This document shows, one piece after another, positions 6,365-56,382 of a DNA stretch of 64,000 bases (position 1 is the first letter of the stretch; each line of letters opens with the position of its first letter). The notes under the pieces were generated by a model that made no database searches, was not told the origin of the DNA, and saw only the letters and a list, made by a program, of their open reading frames with translations. A program made the position numbers and the translations under genes. This stretch comes from an uncultured Actinomycetes bacterium. GTDB lineage: Bacteria; Actinomycetota; Thermoleophilia; Gaiellales; Gaiellaceae. The DNA is taken from the NCBI GenBank assembly GCA_963825795.1, contig CAWGVD010000046.1, positions 91,329 to 155,328 on the forward strand, in the 5' to 3' direction.

Positions 6365-7441
6365 CGAGGCTCGAGCCAGCTCGTTCGACCGGAACGGCCG
6401 GCCGACCTTCGCGGACGGGCGGCCGTCGGTCATCACGACGTCGGCCGTGAAGTCGTTCTGCCCGCGGATCAGCGACGAGCCGACGCCGTACGCGTCGACC
6501 GGCACGCCCGCCTGCTCGAACTCCTCGATCTTCTCGACCGTGAACCCGCCCGAGGCGACGATCTTCACGTGCTCGAAACCGTCCGCGTCGAGCGCGTCGC
6601 GCACCTTGCGCACGAGCCGCGCGTTGACCCCGGTCGGGCGGAAGTCGCCCATCTCGTTCAGGAGCGACCTGTCGACGAGGTTCTCCGACGTGTCGAGGCG
6701 CACGCCCCAGAGCCGCGGCCCGAGCGCACGCGCGACGTCGAGCGCCGTCTCGACCGAGTCGTTCTCGAAGTCGACGAGCACGGTCACGTTCAGGTCCTCG
6801 GGCGCCCAGTCCGCGAACTTCGTCGCCGCGAGCACCGTGTTGCCTCCGTACGCCGCGATCAGCGAGTGCGGAACCGTGCCGACGCCCTTGCCGCCCCACC
6901 AGGACGCCTGCTCGTCCGTGGTCACGCCGATCGGCGCACCGACGATCTGGCCCGCGACGTAGGCCGCGTAGCCGTCTCCGGTCTGGACGCGGTGATGATC
7001 GTGGCGCGCGGGCATGAAGATGATCTGCTTGCCCCGCGCGGCCTCGAGCACGCGGACGACGTTCGACGTGATCAGCGTCCTGCGCGCGAGCACCCCGAGG
7101 TACACGGTCTCGAGATGCGCGAAGAGCGTGTAGTCGCCCTCGATGTGCAGCACCGGCTCGAACGGCTCGATCCGGTCGCCGTCGTAGAGCGCGTGGACGG
7201 TCAGCTGCTCCCAGTCGTGCGAGCAGAGCTTGAGGATCGCGATCGCCTCGTCCATTCCGCCGAGGTACGAGCTGTTCTTCTGGAAGACCTGCATCACGAC
7301 ACGCGGATGTCGGCCGTCCTCGAGCAGCGCGTCGCGCGCGTGGTTGAAGTAGGCGTCGGTGTAGTAGCCGGCCCGCATCTTCTCGACCGGCAGGTCGAAG
7401 ACCTCGGGCTCGAGGCGCTCCCGCTTAGTTTCGGTGACCAT
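6365..7441 (-). CDS. pncB: nicotinate phosphoribosyltransferase (archaeal/Thermoplasma-like NAPRTase type)
   Basis: N-terminus has YYTDAYFNHA; the protein is recognisable to about residue 360. No in-frame stop until 5225, so the 3' end is assigned by homology only. Confidence 0.55.
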
Positions 7442-14949: not shown

Positions 14950-15022
14950 GGCGAGGTAGCTCAGTTGGTAGAGCACACGGCTGAAAACCGTGGTGTCGCC
15001 GGTTCGATTCCGGCCCTCGCCA
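14950..15022 (+). tRNA. tRNA-Phe (GAA)
   Basis: GGCGAGGTAGCTCAGTTGGTAGAGCACACGGCTGAAAACCGTG...GGTTCGATTCCGGCCCTCGCCA. Cloverleaf with anticodon loop CTGAAAA. CCA not encoded. Confidence 0.9.
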
Positions 15023-47359: not shown

Positions 47360-47433
47360 GGGCGATTAGCTCAGTTGGTTAGAGCGCCGCTCTGATAAGG
47401 CGGAGGTCCGTGGTTCGAATCCACGATCGCCCA
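47360..47433 (+). tRNA. tRNA-Ile (GAU)
   Basis: GGGCGATTAGCTCAGTTGGTTAGAGCGCCGCTCTGATAAGGCGGAGGTCCGTGGTTCGAATCCACGATCGCCCA with anticodon loop CTGATAA. Confidence 0.9.
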
Positions 47434-47699
47434 CTCTCCGCGCGGAGTCCGGCGCGCTCCGCGCGCCATGACGACTCTCGGAGCGCGGATTGGCGACTGC
47501 TGCGGGTAGGCATGGCGCAGCGACTTAGTGCAGGACCTGCGTGCGGTGCAGGTAGTCGTCCACCGTCAGCAGAAACGCCTCGTCCCGAGCGATCTCGCTC
47601 AGCGTTCCCTTCGTGAAGTCGTCCAGGTCCGGCGTCCCCGCCAGCTCGACGAGGAACGTCCCCAGCCGGCCCTCCTGGGACATCGCGGCCATGTGCGAG

Positions 47700-48656
47700 A
47701 AGATCTGTCCGCGCCTCGGCGTCCTGCGAGATCGCCTCCAGCGACTCGAGATCCTCGAGCCACTCGACGAACATCAGCGGGCCGCCGCTTCCAGGGCCTC
47801 GGCGAGCTCCTCGAGCTGAACCTCGCTCTCGACCGGGATCTCGAGCCCGCGCTGCACTGACCCGGACGCGGAACCCCGTCAGGCGCTCGGCTGCGATCTT
47901 GACGCGCTCCGCGAGCTGCGGATCGGCAGGTGGCCGCCGCCGGCGCTTCGTCGCAGCGCCCGACCAGCGCGCCTCGCGCTCCGCAGCGCGCACGGAGAGC
48001 CCCTGGCGAACGATCTTGCGCGCGAGCCGGCGCCTGCCCTCGTTGTCCGGCACCGCGAGCACCGCGCGCGCATGACCCTCGGTCAGCTCGCCGCGCTCGA
48101 CCATCGCGAGGATGTCGTCCGAGAGCTCGAGCAGGCGCAGACGGTTCGAGACGGCCGGCTTCGACGCGCCGACGCGCTCGGCGATGTCGCCCAGCGAGAG
48201 GTCGAACTCGTCGACGAGCACGGCGAAGGCGCGCGCCTCTTCGATCGGCGTCAGCTCCTCACGCGCGACGTTCTCGACGAGCCCGAGCAGGAGCGCGTCG
48301 CGATCGGCCGCGTCCCGGACGAGCGCGGGCAGCGTCTCCAGGTTCGCCTCGCGCGCCGCCCGCCAGCGCCGCTCGCCCGCGACGAGCTCGTAGCCCCCGG
48401 CGGCGCGTGGGCGCAGGACGACCGGCTGGATGATCCCCTGCGCCCGGATCGACTCCGCGAGCGCGAGAGTCGTCTCGTGCTCGAAGCGCTTCCGCGGCTG
48501 CTTCGGGTTCGGATGGATCTGGTCGATCGGGACGTGCGCCAGCTCGGCGCCGCCGGCGCCGCCGATCAGGACCTCGAGCCCGCGGCCCAGTCCTCGCCTT
48601 GCTGCGCTCTCGGTTGAACTCGGATTGAGTCGACCGGTCATTTCAGACGGAGGCAC
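47700..48656 (-). CDS. parB: chromosome partitioning protein ParB
   Basis: GLGRGL N-terminal box, the ParB-box/HTH region, and a C-terminal dimerisation region (LMFVEWLEDLESLEAI). The ORF continues open to 47379. An internal ATG at 48641 sits right after the parA stop. Confidence 0.8.
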
Positions 48657-48702
48657 GGGCTAAGCCCGTCCCTCCTGACACCGGCGCCGCAAGCGGCGCC
48701 TC
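48632..48702. repeat. 72-nt two-hairpin intergenic repeat, copy A (parA|parB junction)
   Basis: GACCGGTCATTTC...GGAGGcACGGGCtaaGCCCGTcCCTCC...GGCGCCGcaagCGGCGCC. About 90% identical to copy B at 55250..55320, with compensatory stem substitutions. Confidence 0.7.
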
Positions 48703-49467
48703 AGAGGAACGGTCGACAAGCTCCATCGCCACCTTCCAGTAGGCCTCCGCGCCGGCCGAGCGCGGGTCGTAGGTGATCACGGGCTCGCCGTGGCTCGGCG
48801 CCTCTGCGATCCGGACGGAGCGAGGGACGCGCGCGCGAAAGAGCAGCGGGCCGAAGTGGCGCTCGAGCTCCGCGGCCACGTCGGCGGACAGCTTCGTCCG
48901 CGCGTCGACCATCGTCAGGATCACTCCGGCGAGCGCGAGGCTGGGATTGAGCCGCGTCCGGATCGCGCCGAGCGAGGTGACGAGCTGCGAGAGGCCCTCG
49001 AGCGCGTAGTACTCGGCCTGCACCGGGACGAGCACGCGACTCGCGGCCGCGAGCGCGTTGACGGTGAGCGGGCCGAGCGAGGGCGGGCAGTCGACGAACA
49101 CGAATGCGTGCGTCTCCGTCGCCGGGGCGAGCGTCTCCGCGAGGAAGCGCTCGCCGTCGCCGCGGCGCGCAAGGTCCGCGGCCGTTCCGGCGAGGTCCGG
49201 CTTGGACGGGATCAGGTCGAGGTTCTCGAAGCGCGTCGGCCTCGCGAGCTCGCTCGGCGGGGCGCCGTCGAGCAGGTCGCAGCTGGACGTCCCGTTCGCC
49301 TGCTCGCCGAGCCCCGACGTCGCGTTCGCCTGCGGGTCGAGATCGACGAGCAGCACCCGTTCGCCCGCCTTCGCGAGGCAGGCTGCGAGGTTGACGGCAG
49401 TGGTCGTCTTGCCAACCCCGCCCTTCTGGTTGGCGACGGCGTAGATCCGCCCGGGCACGCAGCCCAT
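48643..49467 (-). CDS. parA: chromosome partitioning ATPase ParA/Soj
   Basis: KGGVGKTT deviant Walker A. The last ~20 aa (EAPLAAPVSGGTGLARASV) and the stop are encoded by repeat copy A. Confidence 0.85.
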   Translation of the reverse strand: MGCVPGRIYAVANQKGGVGKTTTAVNLAACLAKAGERVLLVDLDPQANATSGLGEQANGTSSCDLLDGAPPSELARPTRFENLDLIPSKPDLAGTAADLARRGDGERFLAETLAPATETHAFVFVDCPPSLGPLTVNALAAASRVLVPVQAEYYALEGLSQLVTSLGAIRTRLNPSLALAGVILTMVDARTKLSADVAAELERHFGPLLFRARVPRSVRIAEAPSHGEPVITYDPRSAGAEAYWKVAMELVDRSSEAPLAAPVSGGTGLARASV

Positions 49468-49472
49468 TCTGA

Positions 49473-50075
49473 TCAGGCGAGAGGACGTTTCCGGGCCAGG
49501 CCGGGCCGTCTCGGGAAACCCGCTGGAGTGGGGGCGATTTTGCGCGCAACGGCCAAACCGCCCCGCTCCTCCACGGTCGAGCCGCCGAGCTGTTCCGACA
49601 CCCGCGAGAGCGCGTCGAGGTCGGCGGACGGACCGAGCCAGAGCACGGCCGCGCCTCCCTCGCGAACGAGCGGCAGGACCCACTCCAGTGCGACCGCGGG
49701 CGGGGCGAGCGCCTTCGCGACCGCCACACCGAACCGATCCGTCTCGTGCTCCTCGGCGCGCGACCGAGTCACGGTCACGTTCGGGAAGTCCGCCGCTGCG
49801 CGCTCGAGGAACGCGGTCTTGCGCGCGTTCGAGTCGAGCAGCGTCACCTCGCGGTCGGGCAGGCTCGCCGCCAGGACGAGCCCCGGCGACCCGTTTCCCG
49901 AGCCCACGTCGACGATCGGCCCGTCGAAGCCGCGCACGACCTCGACTCCGCGCAGCGCATCGTCGACGAGCATCGCCCAGGCCTCGTCGCGATCCTCGAT
50001 CGCGGTCAGCCCGGGCGTGGCCAGAACCGCGTCGAGCCAAGCGCTCGAGCCGCGGATCCGTCAACCGGCGCGGCG
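49473..50075 (-). CDS. rsmG: 16S rRNA (guanine527-N7)-methyltransferase, frameshift near 50045
   Basis: VDVGSGNGSPGL motif. The N-terminus (LTAIEDRDEAWAMLVDDAL) and the extreme N-terminus (TDPRLERLA) lie in different frames. Confidence 0.7.
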
Positions 50076-50752
50076 TAATCACGACGTAGCGATTGGGCTC
50101 CGTGCCCTCGCTACCGGTCTCGACCCCGTCGAACGCCTTCAGCCGCAGGTGCACGGTCTTCCGCTCGACCGCGGTCATCGGCTCGAGGTCGACCGACGAG
50201 TGGGTCGCGAGCGCCTCTTCGGCGCTCCGCACCGCGAGCGACTCGAGAGCCGCGCGGCGCCGTTCCCTGTAGCCGGCGGCGTCGACGACGACCTCCTTGC
50301 GGTCGTCCGGACGGGAGCGCCAGACGATCGCGTTCGCGAGGTACTGGATCGCGTCGATCGTCTGCCCGTGCTTGCCGATCAGGAGGCCGAGGTTCGAGCC
50401 GGAGCACGAGGCCGTGACCGTCTCGTCGTCCTCGAGGATGTCGATCCGGCAGCGCACGCCGATCCCGACGGTGATGCGTTCGAGCAGGTCGCGCACCTCA
50501 GCGGCAAGCTCGCTGTCGCCGTCCGTCGACTCCTGCGCAACCTCTGCGTCGACCAGCGCGACGACCCGCGCAGGCGCGTAGCCCACGCCGAGCAGCCCGC
50601 GCTCGCCTTCGGACACGACCTGGAAGCGAACGGCGCCCTTGTCGAGCCCCGGATGGAGCTTCTCGAGCTCGCGGAGCGCAGCCCACTTCGCCTCGCCGAC
50701 GGTCTCGCCGGTCGCCTCGACCTGGCTGAGGTCCTCCATCATCGCCTTGCCT
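50062..50752 (-). CDS. Jag/KhpB R3H-domain RNA-binding protein
   Basis: MMEDLSQVEATGETVGEAK...KH-like, then R3H (ERKTVHLRL), ending at YVVITPRR. No in-frame stop found. Confidence 0.6.
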
Positions 50753-51548
50753 TCTTCTTCTTCCGCCGCACGCGGCGCGGCTGCGCAGGCGGAGCGGCCG
50801 GCTTGGCCTCGGTGGTCTCCGCGGCGCCGTCGCTGCTCTCCGGCTCGGACTTCGGCGGCGTCCTGGACGACCGCTTCGGCGCCGGCTTCGCCTTCGGCAT
50901 CAGCTGCCGCGTGACGAGGCCCTGGCCGACCGTCCAGAGGTTCGTCGTCACCCAGTAGATGACGAGCCCGACGGGGAAGTTGACGATCACCGGGACGAAC
51001 GCGACCGGGAGGATCATCATCATCGTCCGCTGCGTCTTGTCCATCGTCGTGGACATGAAGTACGTCGACGCGAGCTGGCTGCCGACGTAGATCGCGAGCA
51101 GCAGGTAGCCAGACCAGTGCGCGTTCGCGTGGGCCGTGATGTCCGGGACGAGGCCGCCGAACCAGGACAGGCTTCCGGCCGGCGGGTGCTTCGAGAACTG
51201 GCGCAGCACGAGGTAGAGCGCGATGAAGACGGGGAACTGGACGAGGAGCGGCAGGCACGGAGCAGCCGGGTTGACCCGGTTGTCCCGGTAGAACTTCATC
51301 AGCTCCTGGTTCCGCTTCTCCTTGTCGTGCTTGTAGCGCTGCTGGATCGCCTTCATCTCCGGCATGTGCGCCTGCATCGCCTGCATCGAGTGGATCTGCT
51401 TGACCGCGAGCGGCACCATCAGCAGCCGCACCATCACGGTCAGCGCCACGATCGCCCAGGCCCACGGGAGGCCGATCGTCCCGTGTAGCCACTCGAGGAT
51501 GTTGCGTAGGAGGTCTTCGAGCGGGGTGAGGATCGAGAACAGGATCAT
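50739..51548 (-). CDS. yidC: membrane protein insertase YidC (short Gram-positive-like form)
   Basis: 5-TM 60-kDa inner membrane protein core with a basic C-terminal tail. Start at MILFSIL preferred. Confidence 0.8.
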   Translation of the reverse strand: MILFSILTPLEDLLRNILEWLHGTIGLPWAWAIVALTVMVRLLMVPLAVKQIHSMQAMQAHMPEMKAIQQRYKHDKEKRNQELMKFYRDNRVNPAAPCLPLLVQFPVFIALYLVLRQFSKHPPAGSLSWFGGLVPDITAHANAHWSGYLLLAIYVGSQLASTYFMSTTMDKTQRTMMMILPVAFVPVIVNFPVGLVIYWVTTNLWTVGQGLVTRQLMPKAKPAPKRSSRTPPKSEPESSDGAAETTEAKPAAPPAQPRRVRRKKKKARR

Positions 51549-54097: not shown

Positions 54098-55231
54098 ATG
54101 ACTGAGATAGAAACTGCTGTTGGATCGGCCGTGAAGGTCACCTGCCCCAAGGACGAGCTCACCCGCGCGCTGGCGGTTGTCGGACGAGCGGTCTCGACGC
54201 GTGCGAGCGTTCAGGTGCTCGGCGGGGTTCTCCTGCGCGGCGGCGAGGGATCGCTCGAGTTGGCCGCCACCGATATGGAGCTCTCGCTGCGCCTGTCGGT
54301 CGAGGCGCAGGTCGAAGGTCAGGGTGCGGTCGTCGCGCCCGGGCGGCTTCTGGTCGACCTCGCGCGACTGCTGCCTGACAACGAAGTGGTGCTCGAGCAT
54401 CGCACGGAGCAAGGTGTGCTCGAGATCACGTGCGGGCCGGCCGCATACAAGCTGAACACGTACAGCGCCGAGGACTTCCCGAAGCTGCCCGAAGTCGAGG
54501 GCGCTCAGACCTTCACCGTCGACAACGCCGCCTTCCTGGACACGGTTTCGAAGGTCGCCCGCGCCGCGTCGCGTGACGAGTCGCGCCCGGTGCTGACCGG
54601 GGTGATGGTCCACTTCGAGGGCTCGAACCTCGTCATGGCCGCGACCGACTCGTACCGGATGTCGGTCAAGACGACCGAGCTCGAGGAGGCCGCAGGCGCC
54701 GAGCTCGAGGCGATCGTCCCCGCGCGCGCGCTGACCGAGCTCTCGCGGATCGCACAGGACGCCGCCGAGCTCCGGATCGGCGTCCAGGAGAACCACGTCG
54801 TGTTCGGCGCCGGAGACGTCTGGCTGACGACGCGGCGGATCGACGGTCAGTTCCCGAACCACAAGCAGCTGATTCCCGAGACCTTCGAGCACGAGATCGC
54901 GCTGCCCCGAGAGGAGTTCCTCGAGGTCGTGCGGCGTGTGTCCGTGATGGCCCAGCGGAACTCGCCGCTCCGGCTGCGGTTCGCCGAGGGTGAGGTGACG
55001 ATCTCGGCGCAGACGCAGGACGTGGGCGAGGCGAAGGAGTCGCTGCCGGTGCCGTTCTCGGGAGAGCCGCTCGAGATCGGGTTCAACCCGGAGTTCCTGC
55101 GGGACGGGCTCGAGTCGGTGGACACGGACGAGATCGCGCTGCGGCTGATCAGCTCGCTCCGCCCGGGCCTCCTGCGCTCCGAGGCCGAGAACTTCTCGTA
55201 CCTGATCATGCCGATCCGATTGGCGGGCTAG
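54098..55231 (+). CDS. dnaN: DNA polymerase III beta sliding clamp
   Basis: 377 aa, intact three-domain clamp. Confidence 0.9.
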   Translation: MTEIETAVGSAVKVTCPKDELTRALAVVGRAVSTRASVQVLGGVLLRGGEGSLELAATDMELSLRLSVEAQVEGQGAVVAPGRLLVDLARLLPDNEVVLEHRTEQGVLEITCGPAAYKLNTYSAEDFPKLPEVEGAQTFTVDNAAFLDTVSKVARAASRDESRPVLTGVMVHFEGSNLVMAATDSYRMSVKTTELEEAAGAELEAIVPARALTELSRIAQDAAELRIGVQENHVVFGAGDVWLTTRRIDGQFPNHKQLIPETFEHEIALPREEFLEVVRRVSVMAQRNSPLRLRFAEGEVTISAQTQDVGEAKESLPVPFSGEPLEIGFNPEFLRDGLESVDTDEIALRLISSLRPGLLRSEAENFSYLIMPIRLAG

Positions 55232-55249
55232 GTTGTCCGTCAGCGGGCC

Positions 55250-55320
55250 GACCGGTCATTTCCGACGGACGCACGGGCGGAGCCCGTCCGTCCTGAGATC
55301 GGCGCCGCAAGCGGCGCCTC
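55250..55320. repeat. 72-nt two-hairpin intergenic repeat, copy B (dnaN|recF junction)
   Basis: GGACGcACGGGCggaGCCCGTcCGTCC hairpin and GGCGCCGcaagCGGCGCC hairpin. See copy A. Confidence 0.7.
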
Positions 55321-55326
55321 GGCCGC

Positions 55327-56382
55327 CTGATCGTCCGGGAAGTCACGCTCCGCGACTACCGCTCGTACGCGTCGCTCGAGCTGGAGCTGTCCTCTGGGCT
55401 CTTGCTGGCCGTCGGCCGGAACGGCGCGGGCAAGACGAATCTGCTCGAGGCGATCCACGTCGGGACGCAGGGCTTCTCGCCGCGAAGCCGGAACGATGCC
55501 CAGCTCGTTCGCTTCGGCGCGGAGGCCGCGAGAATCGAGCTGGCCGGCTCTCGGGCCGGCTCTCAGCTGGAGATCGAGATCACGCTCCGCCCGGGCGATG
55601 CGAGGAAGGCTCGATTGAACGGCGCAACCCTGCGCGCGGCCGAACAGCTTCGCTCCGAGGTCTCGACGCTCGTGTTCACGCCCGACCGCCTCGTCGTCGT
55701 CAAGGGAGGGCCGGCTGCCCGGCGGGCGTACTTCGACCGCGCTCTGGGGCGCCTGTTTCCCGCCCGGGCCGGCGTGCCGGCCGAGTACGGCGCGGCCGTG
55801 GCGCAACGGAACGCCGCGCTCCGTCGGGTTGCGATCGGCGCCTCGTCGCGAGACGCCGTCTCGCCGTGGACCGCTCGGGTCGCCGATCTCGGCTCGGCTC
55901 TCGTGGAGGCTCGCCGGGAAACGATCGCGCTCCTCGCCCCGCTGTTCGCCGAGTGCGCCCTCGAGCTCGGCCTCCCAGGCGGTGAGCTGCGCTACGACGC
56001 CGACCCGCCGACGGCCGAAGCGCTCGAGGCCCGTCTCGACGACGACCTCGACCGCGGAACGACCGGCCTGGGGCCGCACCTGCACGACGTCGAGATCCGC
56101 GCCGACGACCGTGACCTGCGCCGCTTCGGCTCGCAGGGCGAGCAGCGCCTCGCCGTGCTGTCGCTGATCCTCGCCGAAGCCGCGCTCCTGGCCGAGCGGG
56201 GCCCGGCGCCGCCGCTTCTCCTGCTCGACGACGTCTTGTCCGAGCTCGACGAAGGCAGGCGGGCTGCGCTCGCCGAGCGGCTGGCCGGGCCGGGGCAGAC
56301 GCTGATCACGGCCACTGCCGCGTCAGCCCTGCCTGCGGAGCCGGCGCAGCTCGTCGAGGTGACGCCCGGAGCCGCGAGATGA
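55327..56382 (+). CDS. recF: DNA replication and repair protein RecF
   Basis: GRNGAGKTNLLEAI Walker A. The N-terminus LIVREVTLRDYRSY lies upstream of the track start. No ATG/GTG/TTG between the in-frame stop (55294) and this region. Confidence 0.8.
   Translation: MIVREVTLRDYRSYASLELELSSGLLLAVGRNGAGKTNLLEAIHVGTQGFSPRSRNDAQLVRFGAEAARIELAGSRAGSQLEIEITLRPGDARKARLNGATLRAAEQLRSEVSTLVFTPDRLVVVKGGPAARRAYFDRALGRLFPARAGVPAEYGAAVAQRNAALRRVAIGASSRDAVSPWTARVADLGSALVEARRETIALLAPLFAECALELGLPGGELRYDADPPTAEALEARLDDDLDRGTTGLGPHLHDVEIRADDRDLRRFGSQGEQRLAVLSLILAEAALLAERGPAPPLLLLDDVLSELDEGRRAALAERLAGPGQTLITATAASALPAEPAQLVEVTPGAAR

What the first reader, a model, noticed from the sequence alone, without database searches (positions are those of the whole stretch)
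48632..48702. 72-nt two-hairpin repeat forms the parA 3' end, parA stop and parB start
A 72-nt element with two GC-rich hairpins (a 5+6-bp interrupted stem and a perfect 7-bp stem with a CAAG loop) occurs here and again at 55250..55320, at about 90% identity. The two differences in the first stem are compensatory (GGAGG/CCTCC here versus GGACG/CGTCC in copy B), which argues for selection on structure. Read on the minus strand, this copy encodes ParA's last ~20 residues (…EAPLAAPVSGGTGLARASV) and its TGA. The parB ATG follows 1 nt later. The element therefore appears to have been captured into, or inserted at, the parA|parB junction.
Basis: seen in the sequence. Interest (0 to 1): 0.65.

Follow-up and report, generated by a model that had tools for sequence, protein, structure and literature searches.

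The report
Dispersed hairpin repeat splitting parA–parB
The 72-nt repeat is real: it is one copy of a previously undescribed ~90-nt, two-hairpin interspersed repeat family found across soil Gaiellaceae genomes, and it sits in the old parA/parB overlap, giving ParA a 20-residue tail and ParB a new start codon.

Summary
The window holds two copies, 90% identical, at 48632-48702 and 55250-55320. ParA reads through copy A to a TGA inside it, and the ParB ATG follows 1 nt later.

The repeat belongs to a large family. Nearly all hits are in Gaiellaceae/Gaiellales MAGs.

A full element is about 90 nt: a ~16-nt left extension, an almost invariant 20-nt box, a 12-bp hairpin, a 7-bp hairpin and a TYRG end. 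Both hairpins covary strongly: 97% of cells are paired and 12 of 19 pairs show double changes. Non-Watson-Crick pairs are almost all G·U/G·T on one strand, whichever way the neighbouring genes run. Selection therefore does not act on the host mRNA.

Close relatives carry empty sites at both window loci: a 17-nt parA/parB overlap and a dnaN/recF CTGA overlap. In filled sites the old junction is duplicated (about 12-17 nt). The ParA tail occurs in 7 of 120 homologue clusters.

The closest known kinds are REP/BIME, MIRU and RPE. It fails the defining tests of the tagged REP, MITE and MIRU families, and no Rfam family matches. How it moves is unresolved, and no transposase was found.

The parts
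48615..48704 (-). Copy A, full element of about 90 nt: left extension, box, hairpin 1, hairpin 2 and TCAG end. The box-first orientation lies on the + strand. The better-folding strand is the minus strand, which is also the parAB sense strand.
   Evidence: Boundaries come from the family position-weight profile: conservation fades beyond -16 from the box and beyond +4 after hairpin 2. An empty-site allele exists in L001, L005 and L006.
48632..48651 (-). Conserved 20-nt box GACCGGTCATTTCAGACGGA. On the minus strand it reads TCCGTCTGAAATGACCGGTC and holds the parA stop (48645-48643) and the parB ATG (48641-48639).
   Evidence: The box is near-invariant in related copies found by a profile search that did not require it.
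48649..48675 (-). Hairpin 1: 5+6 bp around a C·C mismatch, 3-nt loop.
   Evidence: Eight of 12 pairs show double compensatory changes across the family.
48683..48700 (-). Hairpin 2: perfect 7-bp stem. The loop is CAAG on the + strand and CUUG on the minus strand.
   Evidence: 99.2% of cells are paired and 4 of 7 pairs show double changes.
48701..48704 (-). Terminal TCAG (CTGA on the minus strand). In most co-oriented family copies this TRA is the stop codon of the upstream gene. Here it is out of frame for parA.
   Evidence: The window has two extra T's here (48705, 48708) relative to the empty allele.
48643..49467 (-). parA (274 aa). The last 21 codons (SSEAPLAAPVSGGTGLARASV) are encoded by the element and the duplicated junction.
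   Evidence: An identical protein, P0001, is seen in independent JGI data.
47379..48641 (-). parB ORF as it stands. The start ATG at 48641 (or GTG at 48656) lies inside the element. The new N-terminus MTGRLNPSSTESAA replaces MSTVPE of the empty allele. ParB homology ends near 47775, and an extra G at about 47852 shifts the frame.
48607..48619 (-). parB-side, diverged copy of the old parA/parB overlap (GTTCAACCGAGAG on the minus strand).
   Evidence: Comparison with the empty allele TTGTCGACCGTCCCTGAG. This is inferred, not a clean repeat.
48700..48719 (-). parA-side copy of the old overlap (TTGTCGACCGTTCCTCTGAG on the minus strand), with two extra T's that put the old TGA out of frame.
55229..55322 (-). 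Copy B, full element, lying between dnaN and recF. It has the same orientation on the + strand as copy A, so it is antisense to its host operon on the better-folding strand. Box 55250-55269, hairpin 1 55267-55293, hairpin 2 55301-55318.
   Evidence: The site is empty in L005 and L008 and filled in L002 and L094.
55219..55231 (+). Left copy of the duplicated dnaN/recF junction (ATTGGCGGGCTAG). It is recoded but still encodes dnaN's ...LAG and a stop (TAG 55229-55231).
   Evidence: the empty allele has TCTGGCCGGCTGA.
55319..55330 (+). Right copy of the duplicated junction (TCGGCCGCCTGA). It keeps the CTGA where the conserved RecF N-terminus begins (55327).

Best explanation
The flagged sequence is one copy of a non-autonomous, interspersed, structured repeat of about 90 nt that is spread through Gaiellaceae/Gaiellales (Thermoleophilia, Actinomycetota) genomes.

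Each unit has five parts: a loosely conserved ~16-nt extension (TGAgTTCgAtCGkgTC), an almost invariant 20-nt box, a ~12-bp hairpin, a 7-bp hairpin with a CAAG/CUUG loop, and a TYRG end. Units lie at gene junctions in either orientation. Each end carries a stop codon reading inwards.

Shown: at parA|parB the unit sits where relatives have a 17-nt parA/parB overlap, and the overlap region is present on both sides of the unit. Two extra bases put the old parA TGA out of frame. ParA therefore reads through both hairpins to the TGA in the box. The only canonical in-frame starts upstream of the conserved ParB N-terminal motif lie inside the element (ATG 48641, GTG 48656).

Inferred, about 0.6: ribosomes finishing parA at the box TGA re-initiate at the ATG 1 nt downstream. 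This would restore the translational coupling that the original overlap gave. The ParA tail would then be a tolerated by-product.

Inferred, about 0.4: the family spreads, or once spread, through a single-stranded intermediate of the minus-strand sense. An unidentified trans-acting enzyme would recognise it by box sequence plus hairpin shape and integrate it at staggered breaks near stop codons. That would account for the 9-18-nt flanking duplications seen at some loci.

The confidence of 0.8 refers to the identity of the feature (a family member inserted at the junction). The two inferred steps carry the lower figures given above.
For: Family size and host range:
Nearly all are Gaiellaceae/Gaiellales MAGs, with at least 7-8 copies in single genomes.

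Structure:
- 97.1% of cells are paired, 12 of 19 pairs have double changes (167 cells), 0 of 500 shuffles reach this, and slid controls give 28-47%.
- RNAalifold finds the same two hairpins independently.

Strand specificity:
- Hairpin 2 has 39 A·C against 1 G·T on the + strand.
- Hairpin 1 has 4 G·U when the + strand is folded and 92 when the minus strand is folded.
- The minus-sense strand folds better in 115 of 121 copies.
- This holds in 97% of copies in both (+,+) and (-,-) gene contexts.

Insertion:
- The parA/parB site is empty in L001 (99% identical flanks), L005 and L006. The dnaN/recF site is empty in L005 and L008. The two loci assort independently.
- 101 of 120 ParA clusters lack the tail and 7 carry it.
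- Direct repeats whose right copy starts at +3/+4 occur at L122 (16 nt), L018 (15-18), L062 (10) and L081 (9). The dnaN/recF junction has a 13-nt duplication.

Context:
- 38 copies are (+,+), 31 (-,-), 13 convergent and 8 divergent.
- The upstream stop is the element's own terminal TRA in 20 of 31 (-,-) copies.

Long-term retention:
- Orthologous cores are as conserved as, or more conserved than, the coding flanks, for example 0.87 against 0.75/0.81.
Against: - No mobilising gene was found. Genes lying between inverted copies are ordinary, and viral contigs have no copies.
- Most copies show no detectable flanking duplication. Only 14 of 121 exceed the 99th percentile of the control, and half of those are tandem arrays.
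- Within-genome copies are no more alike than between-genome copies (0.79 against 0.77). Nothing points to recent activity, so the family could be a relic or domesticated.
- The filled and empty parAB alleles differ in a complex way despite 99% identical flanks. This fits allele exchange or an old event better than a fresh insertion.
- Translational re-coupling at TGA-A-ATG is untested.
- The box was fixed by the search pattern, so its conservation is partly built in. A profile search did recover near-identical variants.
Confidence: 0.8

Rival explanations
1. A cis-acting RNA element of the host operon mRNAs (stabiliser, processing site, attenuator or translational regulator), selected because it controls the parA:parB and dnaN:recF expression ratios.
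For: - Strong covariation in both hairpins.
- Most copies lie between co-oriented genes.
- Hairpin 2 starts 2-3 nt after the upstream stop codon in 20 of 31 co-oriented copies, a layout known to affect translation for E. coli REPs (own knowledge).
- Orthologous copies are conserved at least as well as the coding flanks.
Against: - Copies occur in both orientations relative to host transcription (38 against 31).
- The wobble signature favours the same element strand in both groups, 97% each. In half the loci the host mRNA therefore carries the A·C-mismatched version.
- Copy A and copy B in the window are themselves in opposite orientation relative to their operons.
- No Rfam match and no terminator-like U tract.
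Confidence: 0.12
2. A REP/REPIN-like or IS200/IS605-derived element, moved as single-stranded DNA by a HUH tyrosine transposase (RAYT or TnpA-like) that binds the hairpins on one strand and cuts next to the conserved box.
For: - Strand-specific G·T-tolerant hairpins that do not depend on host transcription.
- A conserved unpaired sequence beside the hairpins.
- No long terminal inverted repeats.
- Nested insertions into hairpin 1 and mosaic subfamilies resembling BIMEs.
- Long persistence at orthologous sites, as described for REPIN populations.
Against: - HUH peel-and-paste leaves no target duplication (own knowledge), yet 9-18-nt duplications flank several copies.
- No Y1 transposase gene was seen next to any copy in about 1 Mb of flanks. 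This was checked only by inspecting selected ORFs.
- Orientation bias relative to GC skew is weak (56 against 73, p = 0.04).
- The family does not fit the GTAG or CGTC tagged-REP definitions.
Confidence: 0.25
3. A retroposed small structured RNA (a bacterial SINE-like element) inserted by target-primed reverse transcription.
For: - Flanking duplications are variable and long (9-18 nt), with one fixed element end (TYRG) and one end of variable length, 10-23 nt.
- The element's terminal TRAG overlaps target sequence at several junctions, which looks like microhomology.
- The G·U signature is strand-specific, as expected for an RNA stage.
Against: - No conserved promoter lies upstream of the element in either orientation.
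- No reverse transcriptase is linked to it.
- Only about six loci show duplications.
- A 0.9-kb cargo-carrying block bounded by element ends fits DNA transposition better.
- No bacterial precedent is known to me (own knowledge).
Confidence: 0.08
4. A protein-binding DNA site tied to the replication origin or to chromosome partitioning (for example a parS-like or DnaA-related site), given its position next to parAB and dnaA-dnaN-recF.
For: - Both window copies lie within 4 kb of dnaA.
- The 20-nt box is conserved at the sequence level.
Against: - Copies are spread over a complete 2.99-Mb chromosome, from 43 kb to 2.0 Mb.
- They sit beside unrelated genes.
- Close relatives lack one or both origin-proximal copies.
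- By eye, the box does not resemble the parS consensus recalled from own knowledge.
Confidence: 0.05
5. A chance local duplication limited to this genome region.
For: Only two copies occur in the 64-kb window.
Against: 143 copies were found across dozens of genomes.
Confidence: 0.01

Closest known systems
REP / BIME elements of Enterobacteria and REPINs of Pseudomonas (RAYT-associated)
   Same: - Short GC-rich imperfect palindromes dispersed at gene junctions, mostly between co-oriented or convergent genes.
- An orientation defined by stem mismatches.
- Mosaic and nested combinations of modules.
- Long persistence in a lineage.
- Hairpins immediately after stop codons.
   Different: - The unit is about 90 nt, with two different hairpins and a 20-nt invariant single-stranded box. 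It is not a 20-40-nt palindrome with a GTAG or CGTC tag.
- Stems are 12 and 7 bp. CGTC REPs have 8-9-bp stems that start with A/T pairs and end in a CCA tail (PMC3733652).
- The tagged-REP survey does not mention Actinobacteria at all (PMC3733652).
- No RAYT was found.
- Several copies carry 9-18-nt flanking duplications.
MIRU (mycobacterial interspersed repetitive units)
   Same: - An actinobacterial host.
- Units of 40-100 nt in intercistronic regions of operons, often in tandem arrays. Arrays of 98-105-nt period occur here.
- Insertion at gene boundaries that keeps neighbouring genes expressed through stop/start proximity (PMC12548453).
   Different: - MIRUs are described as carrying an internal ORF coupled at -4 spacing to the downstream start. 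Here the box ATG is in frame with the downstream gene in only 10 of 31 co-oriented copies, which is chance level.
- The upstream gene usually stops at the element edge.
- Strongly covarying hairpins and the conserved box have no MIRU counterpart that I know of.
- Sequence relatedness was not tested.
RPE (Rickettsia palindromic elements)
   Same: A palindromic repeat that ends up inside coding sequence and adds a peptide segment to an essential protein without destroying it. This matches the ParA tail, the ParB N-terminus, and L111, where a fragment encodes a protein's N-terminus.
   Different: RPEs typically insert in frame within genes. This family is mainly intergenic, and coding capture is the exception: the parAB site, L031 and L111. 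The host phylum and the sequence are unrelated.
MITEs such as Correia/NEMIS or ERIC
   Same: Non-autonomous units of about 100 nt, dispersed, transcribed as part of operons. Presence/absence polymorphism between strains.
   Different: No terminal inverted repeats beyond CTGAG/CTYAG (4-5 nt). No fixed-length target duplication. No parent insertion sequence seen.

Membership tests
Tagged REP super-families (GTAG / CGTC; PMC3733652) | A single 20-40-bp palindromic unit with an unpaired GTAG or CGTC tag at one end. For CGTC: 8-9-bp stem with A/T in the first two positions, 4-5-nt loop, CCA tail. | tested here: not met
   The unit is about 90 nt with two distinct hairpins (12 bp with a 3-nt loop, 7 bp with a 4-nt loop) plus a 20-nt box. 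Stems start with G-C pairs. A CGTC string does follow hairpin 1 on the minus strand, but the other CGTC features are absent.
REP/REPIN-RAYT system | A cognate RAYT (Y1/HUH) gene flanked by inverted copies of the repeat. | tested here: inconclusive
   Three gene-sized intervals between inverted copies hold an NlpC/P60-like protein, an FAD oxidoreductase and a LysM protein. None of these ORFs reads as a transposase by inspection of the translated sequence; no family search was run on them. Whole genomes could not be searched.
REP/REPIN-RAYT and IS200/IS605-derived elements | Insertion without target-site duplication. | tested here: not met
   Direct repeats of 9-18 nt flank L122, L018, L062 and L081. 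The dnaN/recF junction is duplicated over 13 nt and the parA/parB junction over about 12-17 nt. Most copies show none, which may reflect age.
IS200/IS605-derived elements | Orientation bias relative to replication (lagging-strand template). | tested here: inconclusive
   The GC skew of the 8-kb blocks, taken in element orientation, is positive in 56 and negative in 73 (p = 0.04).
MITE | Terminal inverted repeats of about 10 nt or more, and a fixed-length target duplication. | tested here: not met
   The ends share only CTGAG/CTYAG. Where duplications are present they vary from 9 to 18 nt.
MIRU | An internal ORF whose stop overlaps the start of the downstream gene (-4 spacing), with insertion at start codons (PMC12548453). 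| tested here: not met
   The box ATG is in frame with the downstream gene in 10 of 31 co-oriented copies. Downstream starts lie 11-92 nt beyond it. Copy B has no start codon in the open frame between the dnaN stop and the recF start (sequence read directly).
MIRU | Sequence similarity to the MIRU consensus. | not tested
Any Rfam 15 RNA family | A covariance-model match at or near the gathering score. | tested here: not met
   Only two tRNAs reach the gathering score in the window. The best hit over copy A has E = 1.9 and 18 bits against a threshold of 50.
Intrinsic terminator | A GC-rich hairpin followed by a U tract. | tested here: not met
   No terminator-like site at either copy. The elements sit between overlapping or coupled genes.

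The most novel reading that the evidence does not exclude
The family is moved by a mechanism with no described bacterial counterpart. A strand-specific single-stranded (RNA or ssDNA) intermediate, recognised by a 20-nt box plus two shape-conserved hairpins, would integrate at staggered or target-primed breaks next to stop codons. This would leave long duplications of variable length (9-18 nt) that can pull overlapping genes apart without breaking either. Alternatively, each copy is kept by per-locus selection for a DNA-level function on one strand, independent of transcription.
Probability: 0.15. Interest if true: 0.8.

Novelty: new member of a known kind. Interest (0 to 1): 0.5.

Why it matters
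- It documents an apparently undescribed structured repeat family in Gaiellales. This is an abundant, barely cultured soil actinobacterial order for which I found no repeat literature.
- It shows how such an element can sit inside the overlap of two essential, translationally coupled genes (parA/parB, dnaN/recF) while leaving both ORFs open, by duplicating the junction.
- The ParA tail and the new ParB start will mislead annotation and phylogenetic comparison of these marker genes.
- The strand-specific wobble signature does not depend on host transcription. Combined with the long flanking duplications, it gives a concrete, testable lead on how REP-like elements without a known transposase move.

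Tried and rejected
- **Rfam:** gathering thresholds on the whole window and permissive E-values on copy A gave nothing relevant.
- **Promoter and terminator scans** at both copies found nothing.
- **Viral contigs:** the box has 0 hits.
- **Transposase search:** I looked between inverted copies and next to partial copies (L021, L110, L107, L025, L111). Only ordinary genes are there.
- **MIRU-like coupled mini-ORFs** are not systematic.
- **Origin clustering** is rejected: copies are spread over a complete chromosome.
- **Replication-strand bias** is weak.
- **Recent burst or concerted evolution** is rejected: within-genome and between-genome identity are 0.79 and 0.77, and copy-specific stem states are kept in orthologues.
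- **Short TNA-type target duplication and hammerhead-like core motifs:** checked by eye only; neither fits.
- **A 3-bp third hairpin inside the box** (GTC/GAC) cannot be evaluated, because the box was fixed by the search pattern.
- **More empty/filled pairs between distant genomes** were too diverged to define exact boundaries.

Full report
**1. Observation**

The window contains exactly two matches to the element, at 48632-48702 and 55250-55320, both on the + strand (0 expected by chance). They differ at 7 of 71 positions.

Each copy folds into two hairpins. The first is a 5+6-bp stem interrupted by a C·C mismatch. The second is a perfect 7-bp stem with a CAAG loop. Energy z-scores run from -2.6 to -4.5.

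On the minus strand the ParA frame continues past the conserved end of the protein (...AYWKVAMELVDR) through the element as SSEAPLAAPVSGGTGLARASV, stopping at TGA 48645-48643. The other long minus-strand ORF, which ends at 48701, is arginine-rich nonsense.

ParB (MTGRLNPSSTESAARRGLGRGLE...) starts at ATG 48641-48639. The only other canonical in-frame start upstream of the conserved RGLGRGLE motif is GTG 48656, which also lies inside the element.

Copy B lies between the dnaN stop (TAG 55229-55231) and the conserved RecF N-terminus, which begins at about 55327.

**2. Relatives show empty and filled sites**

Of the 120 best ParA homologue clusters, 101 end one residue after ELV(E/D)R. Seven carry a 15-21-residue tail related to the window's.

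L001 has flanks 98-99% identical to the window. L005 and L006 are more distant. In all three, parA ends ...CGTCCCTGA and overlaps parB (TTG start, MSTVPERRGLGRGLE) by 17 nt, with no element present.

L002, L003, L004, L007, L008 and L094 have the element at the same place and in the same orientation.

At dnaN/recF, L005 and L008 are empty: the dnaN TGA overlaps the recF region as CTGA. The window, L002 and L094 are filled. L008 is filled at parAB but empty at dnaN/recF, so the two loci vary independently.

In filled dnaN/recF alleles the 13-nt junction is present twice. The left copy is recoded but still encodes ...LAG-stop. The right copy keeps the nucleotides of the empty allele.

At parAB the old overlap is recognisable on both sides of the element, with extra changes. 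Two inserted T's shift the old TGA out of frame. A short deletion and a 7-nt insertion keep parB in frame with the new ATG.

This difference is complex even though the flanks are 99% identical. The two alleles therefore look old and exchanged by recombination, rather than freshly made. That reading is an inference.

**3. The family**

Almost all are from Gaiellaceae, Gaiellales or 'uncultured Actinomycetes' soil MAGs. Two hits, L077 and L091, look like chance matches.

The sequence held here contains 143 box matches. The window is therefore very probably from a Gaiellaceae genome (inference).

The family profile gives this consensus on the + orientation: TGAgTTCgAtCGkgTC | GACCGGTCATTTCMGACGGA | 12-bp hairpin | TCCTGA + 3-5 nt | GGCRYCG-CAAG-CGRYGCC | TYRG, about 90 nt in all.

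Other forms also occur:
- near-identical box variants;
- a box-less two-hairpin subfamily;
- nested composites with an extra module inside hairpin 1;
- tandem arrays of 98-105-nt period.

A complete 2.99-Mb chromosome has copies at about 43, 71, 544, 764, 1100, 1944 and 2010 kb. There is no clustering at the origin. Viral contigs have none.

**4. Structure and strand**

On 118 distinct copies, 97.1% of cells form standard pairs. Twelve of 19 pairs have changes on both sides (167 cells). No shuffle out of 500 reaches any observed measure, and slid controls give 28-47% pairing. RNAalifold recovers the same two helices independently.

The non-Watson-Crick pairs are strikingly one-sided:
- Hairpin 2 has 39 A·C against 1 G·T on the + strand.
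- Hairpin 1 has 4 G·U when the + strand is folded and 92 when the minus-sense strand is folded.
- The minus-sense strand folds better in 115 of 121 copies.

Copies occur in both orientations relative to their neighbours: 38 (+,+), 31 (-,-), 13 convergent and 8 divergent. The asymmetry is the same, 97%, in both co-oriented groups.

The folded molecule under selection is therefore not the host mRNA. It is tied to the element itself: single-stranded DNA, or an RNA of its own. The window shows this directly. Copy A is sense to parAB on the better-folding strand, and copy B is antisense to dnaN-recF.

**5. Relation to genes**

In co-oriented (-,-) copies, the upstream gene's stop is the element's terminal CTRA, 2-3 nt before hairpin 2, in 20 of 31 cases. 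Read-through into the element is confined to the parAB copies and L031.

The box ATG is in frame with the downstream gene in 10 of 31 cases, which is chance level. Real starts lie 11-92 nt further on, often after an AGGAGG within the extension.

In (+,+) copies, the upstream stop lies 16-42 nt before the box. In about half of them the first in-frame start of the downstream gene lies within about 17 nt of the end of hairpin 2.

The window's ParA tail and ParB start are therefore a special outcome at one locus, not the family's normal layout. The tails vary in sequence and length among carriers, which argues that the peptide itself is not the selected product.

My best guess for the local consequence: a ribosome translating parA melts both hairpins, stops at the box TGA and re-initiates at the ATG 1 nt away. 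This would replace the coupling that the 17-nt overlap once provided. It is inferred, at about 0.6.

**6. Mobility**

Evidence for insertion:
- empty and filled alleles at two loci in close relatives;
- seven further candidate empty sites among the loci held here, including window 7408-7439 for the L101 copy;
- direct repeats whose right copy starts exactly 3-4 nt after hairpin 2 at four independent loci (16, 15-18, 10 and 9 nt);
- a 0.92-kb block in L001 that is absent from the window. It is bounded by a half element on one side and a variant full element on the other, lies between ~15-nt direct repeats, and carries a small secreted-protein gene.

Evidence against current activity:
- within-genome copies are no more alike than between-genome copies (0.79 against 0.77);
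- orthologous copies keep their own stem states and are conserved at least as well as the coding flanks.

No transposase was found in the flanks inspected. Orientation relative to GC skew is only weakly biased.

The mechanism is therefore unresolved. Hairpins with a strand-specific mismatch pattern and a conserved single-stranded box recall REP/RAYT and IS200/IS605 logic. Long duplications of variable length do not fit that logic.

**7. Comparison with known systems**

The element works like REP/BIME, MIRU, RPE or ERIC-type intergenic repeats. It fails the defining features of several families:
- tagged REPs (unit size, stem and loop rules);
- MITEs (no TIRs, no fixed duplication);
- MIRUs as described (no systematic coupled ORF).

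It matches no Rfam family. Searches of the held literature found no description of repeats in Gaiellales or Thermoleophilia, and no relevant use of the box sequence.

I file it as a new member of a known kind. Its unusual mix of mechanistic signatures could justify more if confirmed.

**8. Caveats**

- The window and L001 differ by several single-base indels, so frames in this assembly need care. The ParA tail itself is backed by independent assemblies (P0001, L002-L004, L007, L094).
- Gene contexts were called with a GC3/open-frame heuristic, not a gene finder.
- Family copies share ancestry, so the shuffle statistics overstate independence.
- The genome scan was truncated, so copy numbers are lower bounds.

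Noticed in passing
window ~47852 (parB 3' part), ORF 47379-48656: The window has one extra G relative to the near-identical L001. The last ~25 codons of ParB (RGLEIPVESEVQLEELAEALEAAAR in L001) are frameshifted, and the ORF runs on over the next small ORF and the tRNA-Ile gene. This is either an assembly error or a real lesion.
   Followed up: partly
window 50070, 50039, 49632, 50882 (rsmG / jag region): There are further single-base indels between the window and L001 at 98.4% identity. The 949-aa ORF 48643-51492 is an artefact of open frames across jag, rsmG and parA. L001's own ParA call is fused to rsmG. Both assemblies look indel-prone.
   Followed up: partly
window 55327-55402 (recF start): The conserved RecF N-terminus (LIVREVTLRDYRSY) has no ATG, GTG or TTG. 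The first canonical start (TTG 55402) would remove it. In empty alleles the dnaN TGA overlaps a CTG as CTGA, which suggests a non-canonical CTG or ATC start.
   Followed up: no
L001 7521-8443 versus window 47326|47318: A 0.92-kb block next to tRNA-Ile is present in L001 and absent from the window. One end is a half element (CTAAGG-hairpin 2-TCAGG). The other is a complete variant element ending ...GTCTGAAATGAACGGTCGA. The block lies between ~15-nt direct repeats. Its cargo is a 170-202-aa secreted CLIPPER/DUF11-like protein, with no transposase.
   Followed up: partly
L111 2052-3101: A truncated element (box plus the 5' arm of hairpin 1) encodes the first residues (MKLDRSFQTDAQAS) of a protein that reads like a TolB-type beta-propeller (judged from the sequence only, no search run). 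This is a second kind of coding capture.
   Followed up: no
L069 262-593; also L014, L019, L050, L073, L104, L108, L118: Tandem arrays of 2-4 units with 98-105-nt periods. The spacer repeats the flanking junction sequence. L069 and L122 are orthologous sites carrying 4 copies and 1 copy respectively.
   Followed up: partly
L021 4603-4666, L087 4097-4154, L093 5888-5947, L079 6275-6338, L086 6314-6378; composites L020, L035, L044, L056, L057, L106: A box-less subfamily (ACGGCCG...CGGCCTCTT hairpin plus the same hairpin 2), and composites in which an extra hairpin module sits inside hairpin 1, sometimes inverted.
   Followed up: no
window 7408-7439: This is an empty site corresponding to the element present between the orthologous genes in L101 (flanks about 80% identical).
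   Followed up: partly
window 14950-15022 and 47360-47433: Two tRNA genes. The second (tRNA-Ile by comparison with L001) lies just downstream of the parB region.
   Followed up: no
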